A stretch of DNA of 64,000 nt. It comes from Eledone cirrhosa (lineage: Eukaryota). Of the stretch, positions 5,591 through 43,921 are shown piece by piece (position 1 is the first letter of the stretch; each line of letters starts with the position of its first letter). The DNA lies in contig OZ024740.1 in NCBI GenBank assembly GCA_964016885.1, positions 154,008,001-154,072,000 on the forward strand. Direction: 5' to 3'. The notes below the pieces were generated by a model. It was given only the letters and a program-made list of their open reading frames with translations. It searched no databases and was not told the DNA's origin. Made by a program: the position numbers and the translations under genes.

Positions 5591-5713
5591 AAACTTAATC
5601 TGTTATTTTAATAAATGTTTGCTCTATGGTTCTTATATATTTGATATATATATATATCCTTATCGAGCCCTCTTTCGATGTTAGTCTTCACATTTATTAT
5701 TATTACTATTATT

Positions 5714-8700
5714 GTTCTTTGAGTCTCAGTCATTGATGTTATTTAACTGGAAAGTTTGTTGAAATGAATATCAAGCCGCTACCTGCAGCCTCAGATATTC
5801 AGGACGTATCGGAGGTTCTTGCTGTGCCTAGCAAGCATGCCTTTTGAAGTGTTCCAAAAAGCGGGGCTGAACTAACTTTCTTTAACCATCCTTGGAAACT
5901 CTTTGAGATAGTACCTAGTGCGCCTATGACAATCGGGACGACTCTGACTTCATGGCAGTTCCAAATCCTTTTTATCTCCCAGTTTAAGTCGTGGTATCGG
6001 TTAAGTTCCCCCCTCTCCTTTTCTTGCACTCTCGTGTCAAATGGGCAGGCTACATCTACAATCAGGCACGATCTTTTATCCTTGTCCAAAACCACCAGGT
6101 CAGGTCTATTGTTTTCCAGTTTCTTATCCGTCTGTATGCTAAAATCCCATAGCACCTTCACCTGATCGTTTTCTATCACCGACTCTGGTTTATGCTCATA
6201 CCACTTCTCAGAATGTGGTAAATTGTTTACTTTGCATAGGTGCCAGTGGATCACCCTGCCCATCACATCATGTCTCCAGCCTTTATAGTGAGTCTGGGCT
6301 AGGTGTTTACACTCGGATATGTGAGCCACAGTCTCCTCTCTCTCTCCACAGGTCCTACACAGTGGGCTAGCCTCCACCTTGTAAATATGGTGTTTCACCC
6401 ACTTCGTTTTGAGTGCTTGCTCTTGCGCAGCCATTAGCATCCCTTCTGTAACCTTTTTAAGGTCTCCTCTTCTCTTTTTAACCAGTTCCATGTCTGTGGA
6501 TCTCTAAATTCAGTTTTCTCAAAGAAGATACTATCAAGGGATTTTTCATGAAGGTTGGTCTTCCTCCTTGTTATTTCCTCCTTGGACATCCCCTGGCCTA
6601 TTGTTCTCTCCTTCAGTACAATTATGAGCATTGGCTCCCTACTGTCGGTCACGTATTTGTGCAGGTTGTTTTTCTCCATCTGAACACAGTCCTCTATGCT
6701 GATAAGACCTCTTCCACCTTCAGATCTCTTTAAGTAGAGTCTATCGACATCACTTCTCTTGTGGAACATGTTGTAGATAGTCAATAGCTTTCTAGTCTTC
6801 CTATCCATTTCTTTTTGTTCAGCAACATTCCATTTCAGAATTCCCGCACTGTACCTAATAATAGACACAGCTCGGGAATTCACTAAACTTATGACATTCC
6901 TAATACGCTTCTTGCTCTCCTAATGTACTCAGATCTTATCAATTCCTTCATTTTTTTGTTCTAGATATCAACTGCCTCCAGAACACATAAATATTTGTAT
7001 CCTTCTTCAGTGTCAATTTCCTTTATCATCTCACCTGTTGGTACCTGGATTCCGTTGCTTCTGCTCAATTTACCCCTCTTCATCACTAGAACTCTACACT
7101 TATTAATCCCAAATTGCATACATATATCACTGCTGAAAATACGGACAGTGTCAACGAGTACATCCAACTTCTTCTCACTCTTCCCAAAGAGTTTAAGATC
7201 GTCCATGAAGAGGAGGTGGTTGATGGTAAGCTCTCCTTTCCCCAACTTGTATCCTGCTCTCACTTTTCGCAATATAATGGTCAGGGGTATCAGGGCAAGG
7301 ACAAACAACAGAGGGGACAGACTATCTCCCTGGAAGATACCTCTCTTGATCTTCACGCCTCCCAAGGATTCTCCACCCGATGTTAATTCTGTTTCCCAGG
7401 ACTTCATACTTTTGCTCAACAACTGTCTGATGTTATCTGCCACCTTGAAGATCTCTAGGCTTTTGGCTATCCAAGAATGAGGTAGCATGTCGAATGCCTT
7501 TTTGTAGTCTATCCATCCCATGGCAAGACCAGTGTGTCTCCTCTCGCAATTCCTCATTACCATCTTATCAATAAGTAGCTGGTCTTTTGTACCACAGGAC
7601 TTATTTCGGCATCCTTTCTGTTCGTCCGGTAACAAGCTGTTTGTGTGGAGGTGATGGTAGATTTCCTCAGACACAATGCTTGTTAACAGTTTCCACATTA
7701 CGGAGAGACATGTGATAGGCCTATAGTTGGTAACATGATTACCCTTGATTCGGTCTTTCATTACCAGGACTGTGGTACTCTTTGTCAACCACTCTGGCAC
7801 CTCACCCAACATCAAGCAGTCATTGAACATGGTTGTCAGTTTCGGGTGGAGGGATGTTATATTTTTAATCCAATACCCCTGCACACCATCTGGGCCTGGT
7901 GATTTCCAGTTGGTTAGTTTTCTGGCCTGCCCTTTAAGAGTTTCAACTGTGATATTTAAATCAGTTTGTTGGTGTGCTTGTTCACTAATCTCCTTTTGTA
8001 CTGTCTCAATCCACACTGCCTGATCATTATATTCAACATCCTGCTCCCATATTCCTCTCCAGAATGTCTTAGTCTGTTCCGCCTCAGGGATCAAGTCGTT
8101 GCCTCTTTCTTTTCCTTCAAGCTGCCCAAACAACATCTTCTGGTTGTTGTCAAACATGCGGTTCTATTTATACTGACTGACTCTGCTCTCATACCGCCTA
8201 ATCTTTGCACTCTTTGCTACAATGCGTTGCTTCAGCTCCTCCATGATAGTATTTAGCTTTTTCCTCCTAGTTTTGTACTTTATTTCCAGTCTATTTTTAG
8301 TGTCTATGTTTTGAAGTGTCCCATTCAGTAGGGACTCAAACTTTCCAATGTCATTTCTCATTTCCCTAATTTGACCATTCAGTCATTTCTTCCACCAAGG
8401 TTTTGATCTTTCTTGTTTGTTGTTTCCTCTCGTTTTATGCCAAGTAATTTCCCCACCGCATTTGCTGTTGCTTTCAGGATATTGTTGCACTGGTGAAGGT
8501 TCCTCGCCTCAAGGTATGGGATGACTTTGTTTACCTTAACTGTTGTTTCTTTTAACTTTTTCCTGTCTACAAATCTTAGGTTCATCGGTTTCCCACTATC
8601 ATTGTTCATTTCATCTACCACTAAGTTTAGGATATCAACCAAATCTTGTCCTAGCCCGTCAGCATTCATTTCCTCAATGGCCGTATCTTTGATCCAGATG

Positions 8701-9320
8701 TTATTTATGTCAGCATTCAGATCATTGTCTGCTTCAGATGCTTCCTCCGATCTCTCAACCTCTTCACATTCATTTCCCACTCGCTCGTTTGCCTGAAATT
8801 CTCCACTCTCCATTTCCAACCTAATCTCTCTTCTCAGTTCCTCCAGTTCCAACTCGCTTATCCATCCATTAGTTCTTATTACCCGGGCCTGCCCGGCCAA
8901 TTTTTGTTCATCTAATTTAAATAGGCCAATCTCGTTCCAGATGTTATGCATCTGTTTCCTATAGCCTTTTTCCTTGGGGTTACTCATCAGGTAACATTGC
9001 ATAACAGTTCTATTCAATTCTTTCGTCCAGTTGGTTCTGGTCCCTTTCCTTCTTTTTCTTCCTCCAACACCATCAGTATTTGGATGACAGCCAGGTCCCT
9101 GCTGCTGGGCTAGGGAGCACCTGCTGGGTGGGAGTCTGTCACATGACGTTCCAGTCCCCACTTCACCGTTATTCGAACTGTTTAGGTTCGACATTTAAAC
9201 ACTCATATCGAGGATTGGTGAATGTATGGTTACATAACCACCGGTAATTTCATCACCCCCAGTGATTTCATCACCCCCGGTGATTTTAGCGTGGCACCAT
9301 CACGCTGTAGACGAACATAA
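5714..9320 (-). mobile_element. R4/Dong-clade non-LTR retrotransposon (Dong-A copy 1), near full length; the 5' end may extend to ~9590
   Basis: Single broken ORF with N-terminal Myb-like motif (RTNWTKELN..VMQCY..GYRKQMHNIW), RT motifs (KSPGPDG, NYRPITCL, DYKKAFD, GIFQGDSLSPLLF, LFMDD), CCHC finger (CRTCGEREETVAHISEC), RHD and PD..D restriction-like endonuclease (RPDLVVLD..IVDVACP). The 3' end joins (TAA)n at 5695-5713. Confidence 0.92.
5791..9194 (-). pseudogene. Disrupted RT + REL endonuclease ORF of Dong-A copy 1
   Basis: ORF-track pieces 8379-9194, 8164-8361, 6961-8157, 6434-6883 and 5799-6491 are collinear parts of one protein, split by stops and frameshifts. Confidence 0.9.
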
Positions 9321-9596
9321 ATAAATAAACAAATAAATAAATAAAAACTTAAAAAAATAAACATAAGTTTCATTGTAATGTTTGAATGTCTGACTTAGTT
9401 TTTTTTTTTGTTTGTTGGTTTTTTTCCTTTGCGTTTTTCGTTTTTCAGTAACATTGGTTACTAGTGTTGTTGTTGTTGCTGCTGCTGCTAAGGGAAGTAT
9501 GGGTTGTTGTGTTCAAAACTTTTGAAATTTGTGTTTGTTGTTGCGTTTGCTTCTGTCTGTGTTCTGTTCTATAATTTTTCGACTTGTCGCTTATCA

Positions 9597-9700
9597 TTTG
9601 GCAGTATCGGTAGAGTGTCGGACACCATGCCCTGAAGCACAGAGCTACGCCCCCTTACGGTCAGAGTTTTAATCCCGCCGACGGTAACCCCGCCCCTCAT
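9597..9700 (+). mobile_element. 5' half of the tRNA-derived SINE
   Basis: TGGCAGTATCGGTAGAGTGTCGGACACCATGC...GAGTTTTAATCCCGCCGA matches the SINE at 47098. Confidence 0.7.
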
Positions 9701-9940
9701 CTTTTTTATTATTATTATTATTATTGAATGCTATGGTTGACGGAGGCTCGGCTCTGTAAGGTATTGTAAATTTTGACCGCTATAACAATTGTAAATTGTT
9801 TAAAACTTTAACCAACTTGTAGACAAAAACATCCTCCTCCTCGTGAGAGGGGTCTTTCTGCCCGTTATTTGGCCCTTCGGGGTTAAATAACTGCTTATTG
9901 GGGTTTTGTGCCCAATATTTATTTTAAACAAAAAAACAAC

Positions 9941-10311
9941 ATGGCTACGAAAAAGAATTTTCATAGGTCACTCCCACTCATTCCGTCTTCTTCTTCCTCA
10001 ATCGTCACTACAGCAGAGAGAAGATTGTCTCTCTCCCTCCCTTCTTTAAATGTGTCTCTCTCCCTCCCTTCTCTTTCGCAAGCGACGACAGAAAAGAAAA
10101 ATCTCGTGCAAAGCGTGCAAGATTTCTCCACGACAACGACGACAACGACGAAACAGGTGTGCAGGAAATACGAAAACCCATTTCATTCGTCTGACGTCAG
10201 GAATAATAGCAGTAGCAGCCGTAATAACAACAGCAACGGTGACAAGGAAAACAACAGTAGCAGCCGCAACAGCATCAGCAGCAGCATAAACAACAGCATT
10301 AGCAGCAACAA

Positions 10312-10356
<45 letters not shown>

Positions 10357-12071
10357 CAACAACCACAGCAACAGCGGCGCCGGCAGTAGTCGTAGTGCCT
10401 GCAGCAACAACAAAAGTAACAGCAGCTCTGACGACAACAACAACAACAGCAGCAAAGAAAAACCAATCTCGTTTGCAGGTATCGCAAAGAACCTGGAAAC
10501 CATCCTCATAACAAATGAGGAATTAGAGGAAGCGAAGAAGATGGTGACAAAAACTGGACACCGAGCAATTTGCAAGGCAGCGGAAAAGTTTTTCGAAACC
10601 CAACAGCACTGTACGGTAACGTACCGTACAGTAAGTACAAAATCCCGTAGGGTTGAAAGAGCCACAGAGGCTCAAATACAAAAAGCCTTGGGGTCTGTGT
10701 GGCAGCGGAAAACGCACATCACCCGAGGTAAGAAATATGCCACCGTAGACGTACTTTTTGCCACACCCCAGGAGGCAAAGGCTCAATCCTTAGTAACCCT
10801 AAGGAGCGAGGAAATGGTATTGGTGCCCTCCTACAGCGGGCAAAAAATTGTGAGGGTCAAACTGACCCCCCCCCCCCCGGGATGGCCCCTTCTTGGCTGG
10901 CCGCGTCTGTCCTCGTCGGAATCGAGGACAAAACAACTGTACTGTACAGAAAAAAGTAAGAGAAGATTGGGTCCGCACCTCCATTGAGACGTTAAACCAA
11001 ACCAACCAGGAGTGCATCGAAGCTATCCCGGATGTGATAGACTTCGATAACGGCACTCAACTGCCCATAAGTGTTGAGGGCAAACGCCCAAAATGCTTTC
11101 GCTGTGGATCGAAGACTCACCTCAGGGCCTTCTGCAACGAGAAGACTCTGAGAAAGGAGAAAACCCCCCTCCTTCCGAAACCGGCTCCACGGCTACCAGC
11201 AACAGGACAAGCGGCAACCAGGAACGATAGGTCCGTGGCACCCATACCCACGCCACGGAAATCAAAAACAGCAGAAGCATTGGAAGTATTAACAACAACA
11301 ACAGCAATACCAAATGCAGCTGCAACAGAGACTCCAGTGCAAACATCACCAACAACAACAAGTGAAAGAGTGGAGCTGGTACCCCTCCCCGACCTCACAG
11401 AATCAGACATGGAGTGTGAGGTGGGAGAGGGATGGCAAAAGGTCGTAAGAAGGCACAAACGCAGAAGCAGCGCATCGTCGCCTTCGAAAAGGGAGGAAAG
11501 AAATGAAAAAAGGGTAAAGGCTACTGCAAAGTGACTCACAGCAGCAACACCACCAACACCATCACCACCCACACTAGCACCACCATCACCACCGGCGACA
11601 ACCCCACCGCCAACAACACCTTCAACACCACCACCACAAGCACCAACATCGCAAACACAACAAAACACACACACACAGCAACAACGACAAGAAAATAGCA
11701 GAACCACACCCCACCCCCAGAAAAACAAATGCACGGCAATAAATACACACAACAAGAAACTAATGACTTACATAATTGAACACACAGACATTTCACAACA
11801 CGACTACATAATACCAGCACCAATCAAAACGCCAACTAACATAAGATTGCTAAAAATAGCACAGAAACAATACACAAACATTAAAACGAAATTCCCCAAC
11901 CCAGTTGGTGATTTCAGAGACCTAGGAGGGACCCTCAATCGAAGTGTATATTCGGACATACTCATAGAAGAGACGACGATCAGCCGAAGGGACGATTCAA
12001 CGGTCCCTTCACCAGACGATCAAGTGAAAAGGGGTGGAAAAACCATCCCTCCTCTACGAAAAGTACGGTAA
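9941..12071 (+). pseudogene. ORF1 (gag-like) of Tx1-A1
   Basis: S/N-rich N-terminus, RRM-like middle, CX2CX4HX4C knuckle (CFRCGSKTHLRAFC), WQKVVRRHKRR basic motif, P/T linker and C-terminal domain. Frameshift near the poly-C at ~10870 and in-frame TGA at 11532. Confidence 0.8.
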
Positions 12072-12106
12072 GTGGTCTTTCCCATCTTTTAAATTCTATT
12101 TTAAAC

Positions 12107-15100
12107 ATGACCTCACTCAGAATAGGCAGTATAAATGCGCGTGGCTTGGGGTCGTCATGGAAGCAGGGTCACCTGCTCAACGACCTCAGGTCACTAAACA
12201 TAGATGTAGTGGCCATCAGCGAGACCAGAATCTCCGAAGCACGGGCCTTCGCACCTCTCTTCGGCGGCTACGATGTGTACGCATCTCCCAGCCGTCCTGG
12301 ATCGGGGGAAGGAGTTGCTGTGCTTTTTCGGAGAGGTTTGGATCTCGCCATACGGGCCATCTTCCTGGATCCAGAGGGTAAGTAGGTGGTGCTGGACGTG
12401 ACCAGCGGAGACGGGAAAGCTTTCAGGCTAGTGGCCGTCTATGCCCCGACAGGAGCAGGGCGGCCTGATTTCATCCGACGTCTGGAGACCTTTCTTGGAA
12501 CGTCCCGCTCTTTAGTGTTAGTGGGCGACTGGAACGGGATCTTAGATGCACGCTGGGACTGTGTGGGATTAGCGGATAGGGTGGAGGGTGCAAGAGCCTC
12601 ACCAACCTGCTCAGGCGTTTTGAACTGTTTGACAGGTACCGATTGGATTTCCCGAATGTACCAATGTGGACTTGGACAAATCGCATAGGGTCATCCAGAT
12701 CATATCTAGATAGAGTATTTTGTAGGGAAATAGATAGGTCTAGCATAGGCTGTCCACAATTCAAGATAGTCAGCTACACGGACCACAAATTCGTGATCTG
12801 TGTGCTTGACTTAGATAGGTTTCATAGACGAGGACCCGGCTACTGGAAGCTAAACGCGTCCTTACCAGCGCGCAAGGCCTACAGAGACCGGATTAGCGAA
12901 CTAGTTAAGCGGGCGTTGATGGGGGCCATCGTCAACAACAAGTGGTGGTTTGCTCTGAAAAGAGCAATTAGAATAGAGTCCATTAGGTTTAGTAAGGCTT
13001 TAGCAATAGAGAAAAATAACGCAGAGGGAGAATTAGTTAGAAAATTAGACGAGGCGCTTAGCAAAGGCATCGCGACCGACGTACTTGCGGCGAAATTGGC
13101 CCTTGACCAATTCTTCAATGCAAAGCACGAAGGCTGCGTTGTCAGAGCTAGGGTGCGTGCTCTCAGACACGAGGGGACGAAAGCCGTTCAATGGGCCCGA
13201 GTGGCGGAGGCGCGTCGTGGCAACAAAGCCACGATCCGGTCTTTGGTGGACCACGACGGGCGCATGCTACTCGATCCCGGGCAAATGTGTGAAGCTTTTC
13301 AGCGACACTTCGCTCAACTGTTCGGGGGCAGTGGCGGGCCGGATCGAGGGATGGACTTTAGTGTCTACCTCAACGGACTGCTACTGAGGCGGAGTGTTGC
13401 GAAAAGCCGATAACAACCGCTGAAGTACGGGATGCAATGACTGGCTGCACAATGGCTATATCGCCTGGTTTGGATGGTCTACCCTATGAACTTTACGTAC
13501 AAATGCCAGACTTGTTCGGAGGCCTCTTGGCGGACGTCTACTGCAACTGGCAACAGAACGGGAGAATTCCCAGCTCTGTGAGCCGAGGAGCGGTGGCGCT
13601 GCTGAGAAAGGATCCGAACAAGGGGGATAACATAGATAATTTTAGGCCCATAACTCTGCTAAACACAGAGTTCAAGATTTTGGCCAAGGTGCTAGCAAAG
13701 AGGTTGGCGTTTGTCGTTGATGGTCTGGTGGGAGAGGCACAGACATGCACCATTCCCGACAGATCCATCCACGACAACCTCCACCTCATGCGATACATCG
13801 TAGAGAGGGTAGCTAGGGAACCTGGCACGGGTGGCTCTTTGATCAATTTAGATCAGTCGAAAGCCTTCGATAGGGTCGACCATCGTTACCTAGCGGCAGT
13901 CCTGAGGGCGGCTGGCTTTGGTCCCGTCTTCAGAGGCTGGATCGCTTCCATGCACAGCGACATCTGCTCTGTAGTGAGAGTGAACGGTCACCTTTCGGAA
14001 CCGTTCAACATGATGCGCTCGGTCCGCCAAGGATGTCCCCTCTCGTCCCTATCGTACGTATTGACTCTCGAGCCATTACTGCAAAAACTGGAGACGTTGA
14101 GGCGGGTCCCGCGCTAACTAGGATGCGGAAGATCCGTGTCAGCATATGCCGACGATGTCACCGTAGTGGTGTCGAACGACAAACACATCGAGGCGATCGG
14201 CACTATACTAAGAGAATACGAAGCGGTGACAGGAGCAATGATCAACCAGGAAAAGTCAGTGGGCCTGCAGCTCGGCACCTGGAGATGCAGGTCCATGCCG
14301 TCCAACAGCGTCGTCAGGCACTGGACGGACGGACCGGTTAAATTGCTAGGGGTCTGGTTCGGTCCAGTCCTCCAGACGGACAAAAACTGGGACGAGGTGA
14401 CGAGCAGGGTGGCTTCTCTCACCCAGAAATGGGCCGAGAGGAAGCTATCCCTGAAAGGTCGAGCGGAGGTGGCTAACGCGTACATCGCGTCCGTCATCTA
14501 CTACCGCCTGACCGTCGTACCTTGTCCTAAGCCCCCCCTGACTGCGTTGGAGCGTTTGCTCTTTCGCTTCTTGTGGAAGGCACGCGCTCCGATAATCAGG
14601 CGGTCCATCTGCTGTCAACACCCGCTATGTGGAGGGCTGGGCATGCCGTGGCTGATGATGCGCAGACACGCGTTCAGGCTACGACATCTACACCTCTTCG
14701 TCGACTGTAATCAGGTGTGGTCGCCGTTTGCTAGACACGTTTTTCCCCAGCTCGTCTCCTTGACGGAGCTGCAGTCCTGGGTCAAGCGAAGACCGAGAGG
14801 GAGCGCTTGGAGACTGGAATGTCTTCAGGCGCTCACAGCCCTCGACCAATCGGGCAATGTGATCGGTGGAAACTCCACCTTGGCGTTCTATAGGGGATTA
14901 GTGGAGGGTAAGAGCGACGACGTACTTGGAGAAACTCTAGACGTCGACGAAAATCAACTAGCCAATCTCTTCGGAAGGACTTTCGGGCCGGGGCCTATGG
15001 ACAACTTCCAGAAATCCCTGGCCTGGCAGTGCTACCGGGGTGCTTTTCCAGTTCGGGATAAACTCTACAGGCATGGAGGTGCCGTCAGCTGGGCATGTCC

Positions 15101-15512
15101 GAGATGCGCACAGGGCGACGAAACCGTCCTGCACGCACACGTCCAGTGTCCGAGCATTGCTGACTTGTGGGTTTATGTCGAACACCTGCTGTCACGTGTA
15201 GGACGGATCCAGCTATCAGCTGAGTCCATCGTGAGGATTTCCCCTCCCTCTTCCTTTAGCCGGGAAGGGCAGGCAGTTTTTATCTGTCTGGTGGCCATGG
15301 CGAAAGAGATAGTATGGTGGACACGTTTGAAAGGGCTGAAGACGAGCACTTACCTCTTCGGTGATGCCCTGATTAACTTTTTCAAATTTCATTTGAAAAG
15401 GAAAATCAGGGTAGAGAGGGAAGTGCTCTCTACCCAGCATTTTGTTGAAAGATGGGTGAGAGAAGCAAGTATGGCCCGAATGAATGGGCCTTCTCTGAGT
15501 ATGTGTCTGTAA
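12107..15512 (+). pseudogene. ORF2 (APE endonuclease + RT) of Tx1-A1
   Basis: SINARGL, ISET, VYAP, GDWN, SYLDRVF, TDH, WKLN (APE); PGLDGL, FRPITLLN, LDQSKAFDRV, VRQGCPLS, YADD (RT); CPRC..ETVLH..C. About 4 disabling lesions. Confidence 0.92.
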
Positions 15513-15755
15513 ATTAAAGGTGGAAAACTGGGAGAGGGCACTTGCCCTGGTGGTCAGGGTCACTGTGGTCTTTTAATGGGCTTTCTCCACAAATGTCCCT
15601 CGGAAGTCTCCCCCCTATTGGGGAATTTTTCTTTGTTATTTTATTACATCCTCTGTTTTTTACACGCAGAAATGCCCATTTGTACCGTCCTGTATTGTCC
15701 TGTACTGTCCTTAATGTCTACTTTATGTAAACCCTTGTGGTTAATAAAGAAAACA

Positions 15756-15800
<45 letters not shown>

Positions 15801-15801
<1 letters not shown>

Positions 15802-16244
15802 AGTTGCATTTATCTTGCTTTATGTTCATACGAGTTATCACCAAGTCACAACCAGTGACCTCAAGAGACAACAAGGTCCGCCATGTTCAAGAAAGAACAT
15901 ACATACTCACACATGCATCTTTAGTGTTTAGACTTGTGATGTACTTATATTGACAGAATCTTCCTTAGTATATGGGCAGTTCCCATTAGTACTATCTTTT
16001 GTATTTCTCCTATACGCGGGTTTCCTGGGATTTGCGATATGTAATCATTAGACCCCTTAGGTATCATTCTCAGAGCGCCTACAACCACTGGTATTGTTTT
16101 AGTTCTCAATTTCCACATTTTTCCAATTTCTATCTCCAGTTCCTTATACTTGCTCAATTTTTCAAATGTTTTTATAGATACATTCTTGTCTATTGGAACA
16201 GACATATCAATTAGCAGGCATACCCTCTTTTTAAAGTCCTTCAA
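15801..16244 (-). mobile_element. 3' fragment of a second Dong-like family (Dong-B)
   Basis: REL C-terminus (CLLIDMSVP..EKLSKYKEL..IPVVVGAL..VLMGTAHILRKIL) plus 3'UTR, with (TAA)n on both sides. Confidence 0.85.
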
Positions 16245-16296
<52 letters not shown>

Positions 16297-16303: not shown

Positions 16304-17815
16304 CCCCTTGTGTCTCAGTCATTGATGTTAGTTAACTGGAAAGTTTGTTGAAATGAATATCAAGCCACTACCTGCAGCCTCAGATATTCAGGACGTATCG
16401 GAGGGTTCTTGCTGTTCCCAGCAAGCATGCCTTTTGAAGCGTTCCAAAAAGCGTGAAGGGGCCAATTTTCTTTAACCATCCCTGGAAACTTTTTGAGATA
16501 GTCCCTAGTGCGCCTATGACAATCGGGATCACTTTGACTTCATGGCAGTTCCAAATCCTTTTTACCTCCCACTTTAAGTCCTGGTATCGGTTAATTTTCT
16601 CCCTCTCATTCTCTTGCACTCTCGTGTCGAATGGGCAGGCCACATCCACAAACAGGCACGATCTTTTTTCTTTGTCCAAAACCACCAGGTCAGGTCTATT
16701 GTGTTCCAGTTTCTTGTCCGTCTGTATCCTAAAATCCCACAGCACCTTCACCTGCTCGTTTTCTATCACCGCCTCTGGCTTATGCTCATACCTCTTCTCA
16801 GAATGTGGTAAATTGTTTACTTTGCATAGGTGCCAGTGGATCACCCTGCCCATCACATCATGTCTCCAGCCCTTATAGTGAGTCTGGGCTAGGTGTTTAC
16901 AATCGGATACAATGAGAGCCACAGTCTCCTCTCTCTCTCTCCACAGCTCCTGCACAGTGGGCTAGCCTCCTCCTTGTAAATGTGGTGTTTCAACCACTTC
17001 GTTTTGAGGGCCTGCTCCTGCGCAGCCATTCACATTCCTTCTGTAGCCTTTTTTAAGGTCTCCTCTTTTCAACCAGTTCCATGTCTGTGGATCTCTAAAT
17101 TCAGTTTTCTCAAAGAAGGTACTATGAAGGGATTTTCCTGAAGGCTGCTCTTTCTCCTTGATGTTATTACCTCCTTGGACATCCCCTGACCTATTGTCCC
17201 CTCCTTCAGTACAGTTCTGAGCATTGGCTCCTAACTATCAGTCACGTATTTGTGTAGTTGTTTTTCTCCATCTGAACACAGTCCTCTATGCTGATAAGAC
17301 CTCTTCCACCTTCAGATCTCCTTAAGTAGAGTCTATCGATATCACTCCTCTTGTGGAACATATTGTAGATAGTCAATAGCTTCCTAGTCTTCCTATCCAT
17401 TTCTTTTTGTTCAGCAACATTCCATCTCAGAATTCCCGCACTGTACCTAATAATAGACACAGCTCGGGAATTTACTGCACTTATGGCATTTCTGCTGTTC
17501 AGATGTGACTTTAATACACTCCTTACTCTCCGAAGGTATTCAGTTCTTATCAATTCCTTCATTTTTTTTGTTCTTGATGTCATCAGCCTCCAGAACGCCC
17601 AAATACTTGTATCCTTCCTCAGAGTAAATTTCCTTTATCATCTCACCTGTTGGTATCTGGATTCCGTTACTTCTGCTCAACTTACCCCTCCTCATCACAA
17701 TGACTCCACACTTACTAATACCAAATTGCATACATATATCATTGCTGAAAATACGGACAGTGTCAACAAGCACATCCAACTCCTTCTCACTCTTCCCAAA
17801 GAGCTTAAGATCGTC
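16304..17815 (-). mobile_element. Dong-A copy 2, 5'-truncated at the RT DD motif
   Basis: Closely similar to 5714-7204, with the same 3'UTR. Flanked by (TAA)n at 16245-16303 and 17817-17876. Confidence 0.92.
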
Positions 17816-17876
17816 AATTATTTTTATTATTATTATTATTATTATTATTGTTATTATTATTATTATTATTATTATT

Positions 17877-26900: not shown

Positions 26901-27107
26901 GTACAGATGCAAAGCATATACACATGCACACATACAACTCAAAACATCCGCATCCACACATACAATAACATCCATATCTACACATGCATGCATACGTATC
27001 TACCTAGTTGATGTTGTGTACATTCCAATGAGAGAGTCTTGTGTCTATGTTAGAATCCGACTCTCTCTCTATTGGTAAAACTTTGTGAAATTATAAAACC
27101 AGAAGAA
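23904..27107 (+). mobile_element. R4-clade RT+REL retrotransposon (family distinct from Dong-A), 5'-truncated and decayed
   Basis: LDYRKAFDSV, GIFQGDSLS, FVEDLKLY, CRLCRTNIEDITHVIS, RHDVVAK, RPDIMIWD..VVEISCP and IIGALG. Flanked by (CATA)n at 23827-23903 and 27108-27175. Confidence 0.88.
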
Positions 27108-27199
27108 CATACATACATACATACATACATACATACATACATACATACATACATACATACATACATACATACATAGGCAAGTACAGTTACTTGAAGCGA

Positions 27200-29239: not shown

Positions 29240-29576
29240 CACACACACTGACCATAACTAAATATGGAATGATACGCGATGGGGCCCCGCCACAGCACCG
29301 GCGGTCAGAATGGAGAAGGCGTTTCCCCGGAGGACAGCAAGGAAGACGCGTTGGAAAAGCCACTCCAACTCGCGAGGCTCACACCTGTGGCTGGCCAGCT
29401 CAACTCCTATGGTAGTGAGAAGGGAGGTAGCCCTAGAGCCAAGAACACCAGAAGTCTCCACTGCCAGGGGTACAACCGCAAACCTGTCGTTTAGCCTCCT
29501 CAGCCCGACGTGCAGCAGAACCCGGGTTAATCGCAGACTGCACCAGGTTGCGGCTGCAGAAAGTGCAAGAGAAGGA
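29240..29576 (-). mobile_element. 3' end of a CRE-clade non-LTR retrotransposon
   Basis: SAINPGSAARRAEEAKR...VETSGVLG...WLFQRVFLAVLRGNAFSIL is the typical CRE REL C-terminus (FQRxSxAVQRGNA). Confidence 0.75.
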
Positions 29577-31270: not shown

Positions 31271-31323
<53 letters not shown>

Positions 31324-33751: not shown

Positions 33752-33802
<51 letters not shown>

Positions 33803-33814
33803 ATATATATATAT

Positions 33815-36800
33815 CTCTCTACCAGACGGGTGTAACTTCGCGGAGAAGTTTCCGTTATTTTATGTAAGAAAAAAACGTGACTTTTCAGTTAAATGTTATA
33901 TTATTGTGTAAATTGACCCCCCGTCTGGACCTTCAGGTGGTGGGTCAACTCATGGTCGCCCCTACAGGGACGAAATATTCGTTTGAAAAATTTTTTCTCC
34001 ATCGAATTTTGGTAAAAATATCGTAAGAAGTTTGATTACGTTATGAACGCTGCGTTCAACGATAATGGTGGTGGAGAGTCCGTAAGAATACATAGCTCGC
34101 AGTCAATATCGTCTTCTTCCCTAGATACTATGGAGATGGAAAGACGAAATGAAATTGTAAAAACAAATTCATACTCAAACAACACAAATGACACCAAACA
34201 GTTCAATGACAACAAAAATAACAACAATAACACCAATAATGATGATAAAAACAACAATGACAACAACAAAGAAAAAAATAAAGACAACACCAATAACACC
34301 AGCATCAAAGACAACAACACCAACACCAACACCAAGCAAAATACGAATAATATCAACATCAGTGACAACAAGAATAACAACAAGAATAACAACAATAATG
34401 ACAACACCACCAACATGGATAATTCTACAAAGAAACCAAAATCTCCTTTGCACAGACAGTTCAGAAAAAGGAGGAACTGACATATCTCGAATAACAAATG
34501 CCGAACAACTTTTAAAGGACGCTAGGAGATATGTCACTTTCGAAAAAAATGGTGCTTTCAGCATCAATTCTCCGATAGTTTTTAGGACAGTTTCCAATTC
34601 TACCCGAAAACCAGTCCAATTGTGACAGAAAAAAATTAAACTGGTTTTCAAAAATTCAATGAATGATATTTCATTCATTCAAAGAAGCAAACTTTTGGGG
34701 AGTATTTCGGTACTCATGAAGGATCAATTGACGGCCCAAAATTACTATGTGTCGCCAATTGTATGCAACCTGTACACCTTTTTCCCTACATACATGAGAA
34801 AAAGGACACAAAAGATTAAAATCACGAGTGTCACACCAAACGTGAACATATGGTGGATACTGTGCGGCTTCATCAATTTTGATGAAGACAGAGTACTGTC
34901 AGTAGGAAAGTCCCCCAGAGATGTATTCAATGAGACTAGCGTTAAAGTTCTGGTGCAAATGAGCCCAGAGCGAATAGCTATGATCCCATAACGTGTACTC
35001 CTGGACGGACTCACTTACATAAACTTTTCGGTTGAGGGTAGGCAGCCTTCATGTTACCATTTCTTTAGCAGGAGTCACCTGAGGGCTTCCTGTCCTAAAT
35101 TAATGAGTTAAAAAAAGGCTCTTCTGTCGACACCCATCAAAACAACACAACCACCAACACCACCACAACAACAACAACACCAACACACAAAAATAACCAC
35201 AACAAACACAGTTCCACCCAACCCCACTCCACCTAAAACCACTGCAAAATCACATACAGACACAACAGCTCCCCAAGACATACCCCTCCCCAATCACACA
35301 GACGATACAACAGATGAGGCTATCTCGCCATCACCCAGTGAAGACGAGCGAGAACCCCATCGCTCGAAAAGAAAGAAAAGACATCACAAAAGCAAAAAAA
35401 ACAGCAAACACTACCACAAACATACAACCACCAACACAAACAACAAAAATAATCACAAACAAAATCCCCACCTCCTGAAAACAAAATACCTACAACAAAA
35501 CGAAAGCACACGCACGAACTACAGACAAAAACAAACACAACACAAGAAAATTACACTTAGACTTACATAAACACTGAAAACAAAACACTAATGGAGACCA
35601 TCAGGAACAACCCTTCGGTGGAAACCGAAGGGAAAACTTTCGCCCACTCTATTAAAATTAACAAAAAACTGAACCTAAAACTGATTAGGGTCCCTATACA
35701 AACTTATAGGTCCCTAAAAGAAACATTTGAAAAGGATGTGGGGAATTCCTGCGTGAAACCACTTAACCGCGTCCTTCTCAAATGTCTCCCCACCCCACCA
35801 AACATCTCCGTCCCCACCCCGCCGGAAACCACCACCCACCCAGACAACCCCTCCAACACCCCCATGGAAATCGTGCAGACTGGTCCCCAGGAGACGAAGG
35901 GTGAGTGATCTCTTTTCCTCTTTTAACTTTTCAGCACCAACATGGCCAATATAAGAGTTGGATGTGTGAACGTACGTGGCCTGGGGATGCCCTGGAAACA
36001 GGGCAAACTCTTAAACGACCTCAGGTCGCACAGTATGGATGTGGTAGCCATTTGCGAGTCCAGGATCCACAGCGAGCGACAGCTGGCCCCCATCTTCGAT
36101 GACTTTGAGATCTACGCATCTCTCTGTAAACCGGGGGTGGGGCGGAGTTGCCGTTTTGCTGCGGAAACACCTGGGCCTCGTAACACAGACGATACATCTG
36201 GACCCGCAGGGTCGAGTGGTGGTCCTAGACGTTGACGGTAGTGAATGTGGAGCCTTCAGGCTGGTGGCCGCATATGCCCCATCCGGGACACCGCGGCCAG
36301 ACTTCTTCAAACGTCTAGAGACTTTTCTGGGAACGTCCCGTTCCTTGCTTTTAATGGGGGACGGGAATGGAATCCCAGATGCACGTTGGGACTATGTGGG
36401 AGCATGTCCCGATAAAGGTGGGTGTAACAGCCTCAAACAGTTAATCGGCCGATTGGACCTGGCCGATAGATATCGACTAGATTTTCCGACTGTGCCACTG
36501 TGGACGTGGACTAATCTCAGCGGAACATCTAGATCGTACCCAGAAATAAGGATAGGGACATGTTAAACTGTCCACAAATGTTCATGGTTGCCTATTCAGA
36601 TCACAAACTAGTGACCTGCATAGCCAACCTTGATAGAACCCATAGACAAGGACCCGGTTACTGGAAGCTGAACTGTCGTTAATGACAAGCAAAGACTACA
36701 GTAGACGGATTAGCACTTTAGTTAAACAGCACTTGACAGGGGCCATTGTCAACAACATATGGTGGTACTCTCTCAAGAGGGTAGTTAGATTAGATTCGTT

Positions 36801-39597
36801 AGTTTTTAGTTAAGAATTAGCGTTAGATAGAAATAGAACCGAGAAGGAACTGGTAGATAAAGTAGAAGAGGCAATTAGAAGTGGCAACGTAGCCAGCGTG
36901 CTAGCGACGAGAACGGCCTTGGACGAGTTCTTCGACGCAAAGCACGAGGGCTGCGTTGTCAGAAGCATAATACGTGCTCTGGGAAACGGGGAGCCAAAGC
37001 TGTTAGCTGGGCCCGAGTGACGGAGGCAAAAAGTGGCAACAAGTCCACGATTCGGTCTTTGAAGGACCAAAACAGACGCGTAATACGTGAGCCGAAGCAG
37101 ATGTGTGCGGCCTTTCAGCGTCACTTTGCTCAACTGTTCGGGCGGGGCGGCGCGCCGGGAGGGGCTATGGATTTCGGTTCATACTTCGACGGCCTACCGC
37201 GACTCTCGGACAGCGAGGCAAAGTTCTGCGAAAAGCCGTATCAGCCGCTGAGATAGGGGACACGCTGGGCCAATGCAGCAAACGCAAATCTCCAGGTCTC
37301 GACGGTCTACCCTACGAATTTTACGTAGGAATGCCGGACTTATTCTCCGGCCTCCTGGAAGCGGTCTACTGCAACTGGCAACAGAACGGGAGAATTCCCA
37401 GTTCTGTAACCGGGGGCGTAGTCACACTAGTCAGGAAGTACGATAATAAGGGGATGGCATAGGCAACTTCCGGCCCATAACTCTGCTAAACACAGAGTTA
37501 CAGATTTTGGCCAAGGTGTTAGCAAAGAGGCTGGCGCTTGTTGTCGAGATCCTGGTAGGAGAAGCGCAGACATGCGCAATCCCGACCAGGTCCATACACG
37601 ACAACCTCCACCTCATGCGATACATCATAGAGAGGGTAAGGTGTAAACCCGGCTTCGGTGGGGTCCTGATCAACTTGGATCAGTCTAAGGCTTTCGATAG
37701 GGTTGACCATCGTTACCTGGATGCGGTGCTCTAGGCGGTAGGCTTCGGACCCGTGTTCAGGGGCTGGATTGCTGCAATGCACAACAGCAACATCTAATCA
37801 AGGGTCAAGGTGAACGGTTACCTCTCGGAGCCGTTCCATATTACGCGATACATTCGACAGGGATGCCCTCTCTTCTCCCTTCTGTACGTACTGACTCTCG
37901 AGCCACTACTGAGGTAGTTGGAGCTATTGCAGGGCATCCCTCTGGAACCGGGACTGCGGAAAGCGGCGTCGGCCCACGCCGACGACGTGACAGTAATGGT
38001 GTCGAGCGCCTCGCAAATCGAGGAAGTCGACACCTTACTGAAGGAATACGAAAGTTTCACAGGAGTGAAGCTGAACCGGGACTAGTCCATCGGTCTGCAA
38101 CTCGGATCGTGGAAAGGCAAACCGATGCCTTCCGATGGCGTCGACGGACGCTTGACGGAAGGACCGGTAAAGCTGCTCGGGGTCTGGTTTGGTCCGGGCC
38201 TCCAGGTGGAGAAGAACTGGAACGAAGTGACAGCCAAGCTGTTTGCACTCACCCAGAAGTGGGCCGAGTGCAAACTATCCTTGAAAGGTCGAGCGGAAGT
38301 GGCGAACACTTTTATAGCGTCCGCCATCTACTACCGCTTGACCGTCGTGCCTTGTCCAGCCAAAACGCTCGCCACAATGGAGCGCGCGCTCTTCCAATTC
38401 CTTTGGAAGAGGCGGGCTCCTTTGGTGAGAAGATCCATCTGCTGCCAACACCCTTCTAACGGAGGGCTGGTGATGCCGTGGTTGACGATGCGCAAACACG
38501 TCCTCAGTCTGCGGCATCTCTACGTATTCCTCACCAGACAACCGGTGTGGTGGGCCCCGTTCGTGAGGCGAGCCTTCCCACGACTCGTCTCGCTGACCGA
38601 GCTGCAGTCCTGGGTCAAGCAAAAACCGAGGAAAATGGGCGACTGGCACATCGAATGTGCTCAGACGCTCACAGCCCTCTGGCAGGCGGACCCGGCGATC
38701 AGTGGAGACTCCACTTCGTCATTCTATAGAGGGTTGATCCGCAGGAACTGCGACGACGCGCTCGGTGAAACTCTAGGCGTAGAGGAACATGAACTGGCCA
38801 GTCTGTTCGGTAGGACCTTCCGCCCGGGACTGCCGGACAACTTCCAAAAGTCCCTGGCCTGGCAGTGCTACCGAGGAGCTCTACCAGTTCGAGACAAGCT
38901 CTACAGACATGGGCGCCCGGGCAGGGACCCTGCAAAAAAGATCTGTCCGAGGTGCGTGTGTAACGAAGAAACCGTCGCGCACGCATTCATACACTGCCCG
39001 GGCGTCACTGACCTGTGGGGCTATGTAGAACGACTATTGTCCCGGGAGGGACCAATCCGGTTGACCACCGAGTCCATTGTCATGATCAAACCGCCACCCT
39101 CCTTCAAAAACGAAGGAGAGGCGGTTTTCCTTTGTGTGATAGCTATGGCGAAAGAGGTTGTATGGTGGACAAGGTTGAAAGGGCTGAGGTCAGACACCTT
39201 TCTCTCCGGCCAACAACTGATTCTTTTTTTCAAATACCACTTTGGAAGAAGAATCAGGATGGAGAGAGAGGTGCTGTACCCCAGCAAGTTTTATGAAAGG
39301 TGGGTGAAACTGGCGAGAATGGCCCGAGTGAATGGGCCTTCTCTCTATATCAGCCTGTAGGTGTAGGAAAAGGAGGAGGAGAGGAAAGGAATACAAACTC
39401 TTCGTACTCCTGGAGATGAGGGTTGCACATTTTTCGGGGGTATGTGTTACCCATATGAACTGTCTCCCCCGATTGGGGAAAATCGTCTAATTTTTTTAAT
39501 TGCATTTGTGATAACATTTTACACGTTTTTATTGTATGTAAACTTCCCCCTTTGTATTTGGCTCCTTCGTTTGTGCCCCTGTGGCTAATAAAGAAAC
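33815..39597 (+). mobile_element. Tx1-like family B copy 1, apparently full length and decayed
   Basis: N-rich ORF1 at ~34043-35908 and ORF2 at 35942-39360 with APE and RT motifs. The 3' end GTGGCTAATAAAGAAAC joins (ATCT)n at 39598-39678, and (ATCT)n/(AT)n lies upstream at 33668-33814. Confidence 0.9.
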
Positions 39598-39598: not shown

Positions 39599-39678
<80 letters not shown>

Positions 39679-39683
39679 CCTCT

Positions 39684-42600
39684 TTCTGTCTGACGCGTGG
39701 AACATCGCCGGTAAGATTTTTTGTAAATTTATATACGAAAAACAGAACAAATTGTTTAAAAAAACATATTATTTTGTAGATTAACCACGAAGCCAAATTG
39801 TCAGCTGGGTGGCAATACCATTTTTCGCCCCTTTAGAGGCGAAAATTTAATTTAAAAATTGTTTTAAAATATCAAATTTTGCAAACTATAAAACATGAAT
39901 AACACGAAGGGAACGCTGGACAACATCGACAGAGAAAAGAGAGAGAAAGAGGCAGATTTTAACGTTATATCTGCTTCTGCTACTATGGACGTCGCCATAG
40001 ATATGACTGTCAACAAAGGGAAAAGAATATTGCCACTTGAAGATTGTACAATTTCTACCGTCGAAGCAGAAAAAAAAAGGAAAACACAGGAATTAAACCC
40101 ATTAACATACATACAAATGAAAAAAACAACATCAACAACTCCACAGATACATCTACACATAAAGTTTCAGCTCGTCAAGGAACTGAGATTTCCAACACCG
40201 AGGCTAACAACGATAACAACAACAACAACAACAACAGCAGCACCACACAAAAAAAAATGTCTTTCGCTGAAACAGTGAACAAAAAACAAGATTTTATAAA
40301 TCTTGACGTCTCCAATGCAAGAGATATGCTCCAGCAAGGGAGAAAATTTGTAACTTTCGAAGAAAAGGGTGGGTTTAGAATTAACTCACCCTTGAAATAA
40401 AAGAAGACACAGTTCGAAGATCAGTTATCTTTATGACTGTGTCCAATACCACGAGAAAGCCGATATTTGTTAACCAAGGAGATATAGAAAATACCTTGAA
40501 AGAAATTCTAGCAAATATCGAATTTCTCCAATGAGGAAAACAGTACGGAATGTTTCCGTGCTGTTTAAAAGCGAGGAACTCGCCCAAAAATATTCTGTGA
40601 CCCCAATAGTGTCAAAAGCATTCACCTTTTTTCCTACATACATGGGAAAAAGGACACAAAAAATAAAAAATAAAAAATATACAACCAAACATTAACATCT
40701 GGTGGATCTTAGCTGGCTTCGTAGAGCCACTAACTGATATGATTCTTTCGATACGAAAGTCTATTCGACAAAGGTGGGCGGGTACTGATTTGGAGATTCT
40801 GTTGCAAATGAGGCCGGAGAGAATCTCCAAAATACCCGAAAGAGTCGTCATCGATGATAACAACAAAATAAACATTTCGGTAGAAGGACGATATTTCATT
40901 GCTTTCGCTGTGGTAGCACAGCACACCTAAAAGCCTCTTGTCCTTCACAAACACACAACAACAACATCATTAAAAAAACACTATTACCAACACCAACACC
41001 AAAACAACCACCACCACCACGAGTACAACAGACGAAACGAGCAACCACACCAAAACAAACAGCCACTCAACCAACAACAACAGAAGAAACAGAGACAACA
41101 CCCCTGAAGAACACAGTCCCACCCCAACCCACTCCATCAAATACTACCACAAACACACACACACCGAAACACTACCACCACACAATATACCCCTACCCCA
41201 CACCCCTGACGATGATTATTCATCGACGGATGAAGCTGCTTCTCCTTCTTTAAGTGAAGAAGAGAGAGAGCCGCGGAAATCTAAAAAACAAAAAAAGAGA
41301 CACCACAAAACACCCAAAACTCCAATCACCGACACCAACACACAACCACAAACAACACCACATTCAAACATCCCTCTACCAGCAAAATCAACACCAGCAC
41401 CACCCCAAACACAAGCATAAGCACCCACCATAAAAAGAAAACTCCCGGACGAACAACAAACTAAAACAACACAACAAAAACACAAACAACAATACGCATA
41501 CATCAACACAAACAACAAGAGTTTGATGGAGGTCATCTCCCAAAACCCCAAGGTGGAGACGGAGGGCAAAACTTTCGTCAAGGCAGAATCGTCTCCACAA
41601 TTTAAACTTATAAGGGTTTCTATGGAAACCTATAATGAACTGAAAAATAAATTTTCACAGGACGAAGGCAACCCCTTCCAGAACCCCATCAACCGTGTCC
41701 TGTTAAAATGTTTCCCCACCCCACCCAATACCCCATCCAACACCCAAATGGAGATTGAACAACCCGATCTCCAGGAAACGAAAAGGTAAGTGCACCTTTC
41801 GTCCTTTTTTCTCCAACTCTTCTTCACCAACATAGCTGACTTACGAGTTGGAAGCCTGAATGTGCGTGGCCTAGGGATGCCCTGGAAACAGGGCCAACTT
41901 TCAAACGACCTTAGGTCACACGGTATGGATGTGATAGCCATCACCGAGTCCAGGATCCACAACAGGCAGCAACTAACCCCCATCTTCGACGACTTTGAGA
42001 TCTACGCATCACTCTGTAAGCCAGGAGGTGGAGGTGGAGTGGCAGTCATGTTTCGGAAGAACCTGGACGTCGAATTACAGCAAGTACACTTGGAGGCGGA
42101 TGGTAGACTGGTAGTCCTAGACGTGAACAGTACTGGATGTGGAGCCTTCAGACTGGTGGCCGTTTATGCCCCGACCGGCCAATCGCAATCCCGGCCAGAC
42201 TTCTTTTCTGGGAACGTCTCGCTCCTTACCTTTAGTGGGGGACTGGAATGGTATCCTAGATGCACGATGGGACTATGTGGGAGCATGTCCCAGTAGAGGG
42301 GGGTGCAACAGCCTCAAAACTTTAATCGGCCAATTCCAACTGGCCAATAGGTATCGACTGGATTTCCCGACTGCACCACAGTGGACGTGGGCAAACCACA
42401 GCGGGACATCTAGATCGTATTTAGATAGGTTCTTCATTAGAGAAAGGGGCAAGGAGATGTTAAGCTGTCCACGAATGCACATGGTTTCCTATTCAGATCA
42501 TAAATTAGTCGTCTGCTTAATCAACCGTGATAGAATACATAAACAAGGACCCGGATACTGGAAGCTGAAAATGTCGTTGCCGGCACGTTAAGCTTACAGT

Positions 42601-43921
42601 GAACGGATAAGTGGACTAGTCAAGCAACAGTTAACAGGAGCCATCGTCAACAATAGATGGTGGTGCTCTCTCATGAAAGCAATTAGAATAGAATCGATAG
42701 GGTTTAGCAGAGAGTTAGCCTTAGAGAAAACAAACTAGAAAGAGAACTAATAGCCAAGGTAGAGGAAGAACTTAGAAGTGGCAATGCGGCTAGAGTGTTA
42801 GCGTCGAGAACGGCACTGGACCAGTTCTTCGTTGCGAAATACGAAGGCTACATGGTCAGAAGCAAAACACGTGCTCTAGGAAACGAAGGAGCGAAAGCTG
42901 TCAGCTGGGCCCGAGTGGCGGAGGCAAAAAGTGGCAACAAGTCCACGATTCGGTCTTTCAAAGACCAAAACGTACGCGTGCTACTTGACCGCAAGCAAAT
43001 GTGCGCGTCCATTCAGCAGCACTTTGCGCGACTGTTTGAGCAGAACGATGGTGAGCCGAACGGGGCAATCGACTTTAGTTCATACCGCAAATGCCTGCCG
43101 CGTCTCTCGGTCACGGACGCCGAGTTCTGCGAAAGACCGATCACGGACACTGAGATACGGGACGCTCTGGGCCGCTGCCGGAAACGCAAGTCACCCGGTC
43201 TAGATGGTCTACCCTATGAGTTTTACATAAGCATACTGGACTTGTTCTCTGGCGTCCTCGAAGCCGTCTACTACAATTGGCAGCAGAACCGGAGAATTGA
43301 ATGCGCTCAGGCGCTCACAGTCCTCTAGCAAGCGGGCGCAGCAATCAGTGGAGACTCCACTTCGATATTCTATAGAGGGATTGTACGTTACAAGGGTGAC
43401 GACGTGCTCGGAGAGACTCTGGGCGTCGAAGACTATGAGCTCACCAGTCTGTTTGGTAGGACTTTCCGCCCGGGACCTATGGACAACTTACAGAGGTCCC
43501 TGGCCTGGCAGTGCTACCGAGGAGCTCTACCGGTTAGCGGCAAGATCTACAGGCACGGACGCCCCGGCAGGGATCCTTCCAAGAGGACGTGTCCAAGATG
43601 CGCGCAGGACATTGAAACAGCCCTGCACGCAATTGTACACTGCCCGGGCGTAACCGACCTGTGGAACTATGCAGAACAACTGCTGTCGCGTATGGGACAA
43701 ATCCAGTTGACTGCCGAGTCCATAGTAAGGATCAAACCGTCAGCTTCTTTCAAAAACGAAAGAGAAGCTGTTTTTTTCTGTACGGTGGATATGGTGAAAT
43801 AAGTTATATGGTGGACGAGATTGAGAGGACTGAGGACAGATGCCTTTCTCTCCGGACAACAATTGATTCCCTTCTTTAAGTATCACTTTAGAAGGTGAAT
43901 CACAGTGGAGAGAGAGGCACT
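39684..43921 (+). mobile_element. Tx1-like family B copy 2 (diverged), RT internally deleted, 3' end missing
   Basis: The 5' motif resembles B1 (CTTTCTGTCTGACGCGTGGAACATCGCCGGTAAG vs CTCTCTACCAGACGGGTGTAACTTCGCGGAGAAG). ORF1 at ~39895-41789, APE from 41832. The sequence jumps from NWQQNRRI to ECAQAL at ~43298. It starts right after (ATCT)n. Confidence 0.88.

What the first reader, a model, noticed from the sequence alone, without database searches (positions are those of the whole stretch)
5695..43921. Retrotransposon families partition microsatellite targets
Seen: Dong-A (2 copies) and Dong-B end in (TAA)n, Tx1-A (2 copies) has (ATT)n on both sides, the R4-like element has (CATA)n on both sides, Tx1-B (3 copies) sits at (ATCT)n, and Penelope pieces sit in (TA)n. 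5'-truncated copies (17815, 16244, 31270, 23904) also abut the repeat, so it behaves as a target and not only as a tail. Established: Dong targets (TAA)n, and the Tx1-clade Kibi/Koshi elements target TC/TTC-type repeats. I do not know of ATT- or ATCT-specific Tx1 or CATA-specific R4 families, so these may be new endonuclease specificities (inference).
Basis: partly seen in the sequence, partly recalled or inferred. Interest (0 to 1): 0.72.

Follow-up and report, generated by a model that had tools for sequence, protein, structure and literature searches.

The report
Retrotransposon lineages target distinct microsatellites
Several families of jumping genes in this animal genome sit almost only in one short DNA repeat each (ATT, ATCT or ACAT) and face one way in it, likely because their own proteins pick that repeat, which extends a known behaviour to repeats I did not find reported and offers close relatives for testing how such targeting likely changes.

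Summary
The pattern is real and genome-wide. Other copies abut each family's own repeat, on a fixed strand. Full-length 5' ends: Tx1-A (ATT)n 29/29, Tx1-B (ATCT)n 22/29, Tx1-C 27/29. 5'-truncated ends: Tx1-B 13/21, ACAT-R4 14/27, Dong-A (AAT)n 19/27, Dong-B 12/16, but Tx1-A only 1/7. Random positions meet the rule at 0.05-0.3%.

Corrections: (1) 'Partition' holds for lineages, not families. Dong and ATT-Tx1 share one repeat on opposite strands, and at least 3 ATT and 4 ATCT Tx1 families exist. (2) The third 'Tx1-B' is a separate family. (3) Penelope-like stubs lie outside the coordinates, and their (TA)n bias is published. (4) For R4/Dong the likely determinant is an N-terminal Myb-like domain rather than the nuclease.

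ATT and ATCT Tx1 split with 100% support, and the endonuclease diverged more than the RT across that split (p=0.0014). The ATCT lineage also uses (TC)n, the Kibi target. RNA-end pairing is not excluded. Ten paper searches found no report of these targets; Repbase and Dfam were not available. This scan noted the same families in other windows. Verdict: new variant of a known kind.

The parts
5694..5714 (.). Imperfect (AAT)n at the 3' end of Dong-A copy 1
5715..9590 (-). Dong-A copy 1, full length by its 5' end (3.9 kb), single broken ORF with Myb-like N-terminus and RT
9597..9705 (+). Head of an abundant SINE-like element between Dong-A and Tx1-A
9706..9723 (.). (ATT)n 5' of Tx1-A copy 1
9724..15757 (+). 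Tx1-A copy 1 (APE, RT, zf-RVT); its 5' 2.3 kb differs from copy 2
15758..15800 (.). (ATT)n shared tail-to-tail by Tx1-A copy 1 and Dong-B
15801..16250 (-). Dong-B, 5'-truncated (last 450 of 4471 nt); intact 1216-aa ORF in L316
16245..16303 (.). (AAT)n: tail of Dong-A copy 2 and 5' flank of Dong-B
16308..17813 (-). Dong-A copy 2, 5'-truncated
17817..17876 (.). (ATT)n shared head-to-head by Dong-A copy 2 and Tx1-A copy 2
17877..23672 (+). Tx1-A copy 2, full length 5.8 kb: ORF1 with CCHC knuckle, ORF2 APE-RT-zf-RVT
23673..23731 (.). (ATT)n 3' of Tx1-A copy 2
23827..23903 (.). (CATA)n 5' of the R4-like copy
23904..27106 (+). R4/Dong-like RLE element of the ACAT lineage, 5'-truncated (from nt 866 of 4088)
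27107..27175 (.). (ACAT)n 3' of the R4-like copy
29571..31271 (-). Tx1-B-like internal fragment (88%), 5'-truncated at (ATCT)n, 3' third missing
31271..31323 (.). (ATAG)n, i.e. (ATCT)n on the fragment's sense strand
33752..33814 (.). (TATC)12 then (TA)7, 5' of Tx1-B
33815..39597 (+). Tx1-B, full length 5.8 kb
39599..39678 (.). (TATC)20: tail of Tx1-B and 5' flank of Tx1-C
39680..43924 (+). Tx1-C, a separate ATCT-lineage family; 1.25-kb internal deletion, 3' end missing

Best explanation
These are non-LTR retrotransposon lineages whose copies sit strand-specifically in one microsatellite each, likely because each lineage's own protein binds and nicks that repeat to start target-primed reverse transcription. 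Shown: the flanks, the fixed strand, the fixed register at the 3' junction, 12-14 bp duplications for Tx1-B, and the split of Tx1 into an ATT and an ATCT/TC clade. Inferred for Tx1: the APE endonuclease nicks the purine-rich strand (AAT; AGAT or AG), and the ATT/ATCT switch lies in its DNA-facing loops. Inferred for Dong (AAT) and the ACAT lineage: an N-terminal Myb-like domain positions the RLE nuclease. Inferred for both: a few target-like bases at the RNA end help priming, and each insertion leaves repeat on both sides, so copies stack, as in this window.
For: Junction table against random background. Genome-wide, forward strand only: of 13,811 exact Tx1 3' termini, 5,133 are followed within 4 nt by an 8-nt ATT run and 4,005 by an 8-nt ATCT run. 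A further 101 are followed by an S/W dinucleotide run, and 97 of the first 100 listed rows are (TC)n, although AC/GT runs are about twice as common in random DNA. Eight non-periodic duplications among 54 Tx1-B copies, against shuffled mean 2.3, maximum 6. ATT and ATCT families separate with 100% bootstrap in both EN and RT trees. Columns that separate the two groups: 43 of 236 in EN, 23 of 355 in RT; Fisher p=0.0014 against within-group variation. Differences fall at positions aligned to L1-EN surface loops, including the bB6-bB5 hairpin (PMC1950540 passages). Swapping EN domains moves specificity in SART1/TRAS1 (PMC7265360 passages). The Myb-like N-terminus is proposed for R4/Dong targeting (PMC7998251 passages).
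Against: No biochemistry, no empty site and no RNA end was observed. Truncated Tx1-A copies found by their own search abut ATT in only 1 of 7 (1 of 13 before dropping 6 internal rearrangements). About a third of genome-wide Tx1 termini match neither 8-mer. The EN excess rests on one branch, two families have a single EN sequence, and the stricter 'fixed' count gives p=0.053. The Myb-like match of the ACAT element itself is weak (E=0.14; its homologues reach 9e-5). No informative duplication was found for Dong, R4 or Tx1-C. Samples are the best hits to the window's copies, so they lean to young copies.
Confidence: 0.7

Rival explanations
1. RNA-guided choice: the nucleases are loose, transcripts read through into the flanking repeat, and only nicks where that RNA tail can pair with the primer strand become insertions, so the target is inherited as RNA.
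For: Tx1 ends carry AATAAA 4-8 nt before the repeat, and none of 332 3' junctions has poly(A). All families begin their 3' flank with 2-5 fixed target-like bases. The model is published for RTE elements (PMC6007223, section 18 read).
Against: Some Tx1-B copies have only 1-2 repeat units before the flank diverges (L086, L087, L088, L090). No switch of target was seen among 7 Tx1 families over about 25-35% protein divergence, although the repeats lie side by side. EN diverges in excess on the switch branch.
Confidence: 0.22
2. Passive pattern: the repeats are element-made tails, and the 5' adjacency comes from tandem stacking, later deletion between repeats, or survival in repeat-rich DNA.
For: Many neighbours are other elements: 14 of 29 Tx1-A copies face a Dong 3' end, and 13 of 29 Tx1-B follow a Tx1 3' end. 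Tx1-A truncated ends are weak (1 of 7).
Against: Strand and unit are family-specific at truncated ends with almost no crossover. The far commoner (AT)n, 3.8% of random positions, is rarely used. Duplications with imperfections occur on both sides. Stacking in a neighbour's tail is itself targeting.
Confidence: 0.08

Closest known systems
Kibi (TC)n, Koshi (TTC)n and crocodilian Tx1 families in (TTCC)n/(TTTC)n (PMC4494074, passages and section 15)
   Same: APE-type L1-group LINEs inserted in microsatellites. The ATCT lineage also uses (TC)n.
   Different: Main targets here are (ATT)n and (ATCT)n, as two sister lineages in one invertebrate genome. Placement next to Kibi or Koshi was not tested because no named sequences were available.
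Dong, DongAg, DongBg and ostracod Dong, (TAA)n (PMC3812793, PMC7998251, passages)
   Same: Dong-A and Dong-B have the same target and architecture: one ORF, Myb-like N-terminus, RT, CCHC, RLE.
   Different: Dong-A and Dong-B are ordinary in target. The ACAT lineage is 31% identical to Dong-B, shares none of its top 120 homologues, and uses a 4-bp repeat.
TRAS1 and SART1 in (TTAGG)n of Bombyx (PMC7265360, passages)
   Same: Two elements enter one repeat in opposite directions, and the EN domain carries specificity.
   Different: Here the pair is an APE element and an RLE element, in dispersed microsatellites rather than telomeres.
Waldo (ACAY)n and Mino (AC)n (PMC3812793, passages)
   Same: Waldo's ACAY target includes ACAT.
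   Different: Those are APE-type elements; the ACAT element here is RLE-type. The repeat is a known target, but I found no report of it for this group.
EN+ Penelope-like elements with (TA)n bias (PMC8557442, passages)
   Same: Inverted stubs in (TA)n with a hammerhead-like core.
   Different: No coding sequence in the window, and the stubs lie outside the finding's coordinates.

Membership tests
Tx1 clade | ORF2 with N-terminal APE endonuclease, RT and C-terminal zinc finger | tested here: met
   Exo_endo_phos, RVT_1 and zf-RVT in P0001
Tx1 clade | RT of the L1 group | tested here: met
   Best solved match L1 ORF2p E=8e-49, against R2 2.5e-18
Tx1 clade | Separate ORF1 with CCHC knuckle (feature recalled) | tested here: met
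   CX2CX4HX4C in P0006 and P0007
Tx1 clade | RT tree placement inside Tx1 rather than L1, near Kibi/Koshi | not testable with these tools
   Homologue searches returned no named references
Dong (R4 clade): Dong-A and Dong-B | Single ORF with RT, CCHC and C-terminal RLE motif | tested here: met
   1216-aa ORF in L316; best solved matches are R2 proteins. For Dong-A only the first 699 aa were read
Dong (R4 clade): Dong-A and Dong-B | (TAA)n target | tested here: met
   Truncated ends 19/27 and 12/16; 3' ends 28/34 and 28/28
Dong (R4 clade): Dong-A and Dong-B | RT tree placement with named Dong or R4 | not testable with these tools
   Homologues unnamed
R4/Dong clade: ACAT element | RT, CCHC and RLE, with no N-terminal zinc finger seen | tested here: met
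   31% identity to Dong-B over 664 aa, E=9e-90
R4/Dong clade: ACAT element | N-terminal Myb/SANT-like domain | tested here: inconclusive
   Aligns to a Dong N-terminal profile with the tryptophans kept, but E=0.14; 12 of 32 long homologues score E<0.01; no Pfam match
Dong family proper: ACAT element | (TAA)n target | tested here: not met
   ACAT at 29/34 3' ends and 14/27 truncated ends, no AAT
Penelope-like elements: fold-back stubs | RT and GIY-YIG ORF | tested here: not met
   No such hit in 93 ORFs; the stubs are non-coding, so this does not exclude PLE origin
Penelope-like elements: fold-back stubs | Inverted ends in (TA)n with hammerhead motif | tested here: inconclusive
   Core motif by pattern at 52690 (+) and 61919 (-); no Rfam hammerhead hit

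The most novel reading that the evidence does not exclude
One genome holds a map of repeat-by-strand niches divided among retrotransposon lineages. A Tx1 endonuclease switched between ATT and a Kibi-like TCT(A/C) register through a few surface-loop changes within 65%-identical proteins, and an undescribed R4-related lineage reads ACAT through its Myb-like domain. Since each insertion duplicates its target, these elements would be major builders of the genome's AAT, AGAT and ACAT microsatellites and of its stacked LINE islands.
Probability: 0.35. Interest if true: 0.7.

Novelty: new variant of a known kind. Interest (0 to 1): 0.5.

Why it matters
How site-specific LINEs change target is a long-standing question and bears on engineering insertion tools. 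Young, abundant sister families with different targets, several families on each side and near-intact natural ORFs make the determinants testable by loop and domain swaps. It would also explain LINE pile-ups and part of the microsatellite load in a probably octopod genome. A 2026 Octopus annotation lists active Dong-R4 and L1-Tx1 families without any target analysis (PMC13282606, parts 1-2 of 3 read).

Tried and rejected
Naming the clades by homologue search gave no useful names. The RLE tree was poorly resolved, with most deep nodes at 50-70%, and is not used beyond showing Dong-like and ACAT-like hits apart. The rooted Tx1 RT tree could not tell which target is ancestral (support 47-62). Counts that include copies met by chance in loci fetched for other families are biased toward the repeat, so the primary-copy counts are used. 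Rows dropped from truncated counts as internal rearrangements: Tx1-A 6 of 13, Tx1-B 3 of 24, R4 2 of 29, Dong-A 4 of 31, Dong-B 3 of 19. Three off-frame alignments were dropped from the EN set. Rfam gave only repeat-driven miRNA matches below threshold. No raw RNA reads were offered, so transcript ends could not be tested. Contigs from four other coded runs hold the Tx1-A 3' region, one with an ATT loose end; I count this as weak. An assembly artefact was rejected because thousands of dispersed copies agree. Supplements of PMC4494074 could not be read; they and its Fig. 3 list further Tx1 targets. PMC4400214 was not held. No structure prediction was run.

Full report
Setting. The window lies in a 3.0-Gb, microsatellite-rich genome. 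I infer an octopod from size, repeat content and the listing of Dong-R4 and L1-Tx1 families in Octopus (PMC13282606); this is not shown. From 5694 to 43937 the window is a stack of non-LTR retrotransposons joined at short repeats.

Genome test. I searched the genome with 3' or 5' ends of six families. Each search scored the best 40 of 581-1,976 candidates; 30 loci were taken each time, and 136 element stretches were extended. Rule: a perfect run of at least 9 nt of a unit within 6 nt of the junction (10 nt for the full-length 5' sets), on the element's sense strand. Background from 54,880 positions in 20 random 10-kb stretches: ATT 0.1%, AAT 0.1%, ATCT 0.05%, ACAT 0.3%, AT 3.8%.

Counts for copies found by their own family's search, window copy excluded. 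3' ends: Tx1-A ATT 26/29, Tx1-B ATCT 20/29, R4 ACAT 29/34, Dong-A AAT 28/34, Dong-B AAT 28/28. Full-length 5' ends: Tx1-A 29/29; Tx1-B ATCT 22/29 and TC 5/29; Tx1-C ATCT 27/29 and TC 4/29. Full-length R4 was 7/7 in all loci. Truncated 5' ends after dropping internal rearrangements: Tx1-B 13/21 (raw 13/24), R4 14/27 (14/29), Dong-A 19/27 (19/31), Dong-B 12/16 (12/19), Tx1-A 1/7 (1/13). With copies met by chance, Tx1-A is 13/24, a biased figure. For Tx1-A the case therefore rests on full-length copies, where 16 of 29 upstream ATT runs are the tail of another Tx1 or SINE and 40 of 45 end in the same register.

Whole-genome counts. An exact 21-nt Tx1 terminus occurs 13,811 times on the forward strand. 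Of these, 5,133 are followed within 4 nt by an 8-nt ATT run, 4,005 by an 8-nt ATCT run, and 101 by a 12-nt S/W dinucleotide run, almost all (TC)n in the first 100 rows. Reverse counts with gaps contain duplicates and are not used. About a third is unclassified. The ATCT lineage thus behaves as TCT(A/C), which overlaps the Kibi target. The reported Tx1 repeats (TC, TTC, TTCC, TTTC; PMC4494074) and the two here are all T-rich as written, so a nick on the purine-rich strand is a likely common rule (inference; I did not check the strand of the published cases).

Duplications. In perfect repeats a duplication is invisible. Tx1-B has 8 of 54 copies with a non-periodic duplication (shuffled mean 2.3, maximum 6). 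Five are clean 12-14 bp cases that start at the same register (L068, L071, L075, L084, L088). Tx1-A's 4 of 60 is within the shuffled range; the other families show none.

Sharing rather than strict partition. Dong uses AAT and Tx1-A uses ATT on their sense strands, which is one duplex entered from both sides. Of 29 Tx1-A copies, 14 face a Dong 3' end; 16 of 62 Dong copies face a Tx1 3' end and 17 a SINE 3' end. At least three ATT and four ATCT Tx1 families were recovered with coding sequence. A second ACAT-ending family (7 of 8 ends) and a non-coding element also sit in ACAT. The published analogue is TRAS1/SART1 in telomeric repeats (PMC7265360).

Mechanism. Tx1-A and Tx1-B ORF2 are 65% identical over 594 aa. 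ATT and ATCT families split with 100% bootstrap in unrooted EN and RT trees. The separating branch is 0.31 in EN and 0.08 in RT, a larger ratio than the 1.5-2.3 on the family stems. Group-separating columns are 43/236 in EN and 23/355 in RT (p=0.0014; strictly fixed 13 and 6, p=0.053). They include EN 61-63, 155-159 and 194. By the L1 alignment position 194 is in the bB6-bB5 hairpin that alters nicking profiles when grafted (PMC1950540, passages). This is one evolutionary event, so it is suggestive only. For the RLE elements, Dong-A and Dong-B carry the Myb-like N-terminus; the ACAT element aligns to it weakly. PMC7998251 proposes this domain as the targeting module. Against a protein-only view: AATAAA lies just before the Tx1 end and none of 332 junctions has poly(A), which fits read-through RNA ends pairing with the target (PMC6007223). 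Both may act.

Literature seen. PMC4494074: passages and section 15, no supplements. PMC3812793, PMC4640811, PMC7998251, PMC3636483, PMC9115989, PMC7265360, PMC8557442, PMC1950540: passages. PMC6007223: abstract and section 18. PMC13282606: parts 1-2 of 3. Kojima and Fujiwara 2004 was seen only as cited. Ten full-text searches showed no report of ATT- or ATCT-specific Tx1, or of an ACAT-specific R4-type element. ACAY is a known target of APE-type Waldo. Repbase, Dfam, subscription journals and unread supplements may hold such notes, so absence from print is not established.

Verdict. A real, strong, strand-specific preference; known in kind, with apparently new targets for two groups. Earlier unreviewed notes of this scan describe the same families in other windows. 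I consulted them after forming my reading; they are not independent support. Interest 0.5.

Noticed in passing
window 47095-47285 (+), 48683-49300 (-), 1310-1490 (+), 9597-9705 (+): Abundant SINE-like element of about 200 bp whose 3' end resembles the Tx1 terminus and is followed by ATT (47 of 97 ends in fetched loci, 1 of 13 in random stretches). It is likely mobilised by ATT-Tx1, and its tail is a frequent landing site for Dong and Tx1.
   Followed up: partly
window 29250-29570 (-): C-terminal fragment resembling a CRE-type RLE element (motif recalled; no Pfam hit), joined directly to the Tx1-B-like fragment at its RT.
   Followed up: partly
L281:1680-2260; also L283, L290: Non-coding element of about 570 bp with (CATA)n on both sides, in tandem; ACAT precedes 24 of 28 heads, and 7 of 8 heads of a related element. 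Its mobiliser is unknown.
   Followed up: partly
L298, L299, L102, L124, L134, L141: 3' end of a second ACAT-ending family, probably R4-like, often directly upstream of the first family.
   Followed up: partly
window 44538-44904, 51608-52963, 55380-55600, 61640-62140: Fold-back stubs in (TA)n, two with a hammerhead-like core; copies in other loci end at (TA)n at two fixed positions. Probably Penelope-like ends.
   Followed up: partly
window 62878-63645: 283-bp direct repeat (97.5%) with a hammerhead-like core on the minus strand at 63031 and 63516; retrozyme-like.
   Followed up: no
window 9724-12022 versus 17877-19926: The two Tx1-A copies have different 5' UTR/ORF1 regions on a 96%-identical ORF2, suggesting 5' swapping between subfamilies.
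   Followed up: partly
window 45683-45970 (+): Short RT fragment (RVT_1 E=0.0011), RTE-like by eye, next to a (TG)-rich run.
   Followed up: no
L074, L085, L371: Tandem Tx1-B copies; in L074 and L371 both copies are truncated at the same position and the repeat plus the first element bases are duplicated, which may be local duplication or double insertion.
   Followed up: no
L312, L316: Dong-B copies with open 1175- and 1216-aa frames, 98% identical: a very young family.
   Followed up: partly
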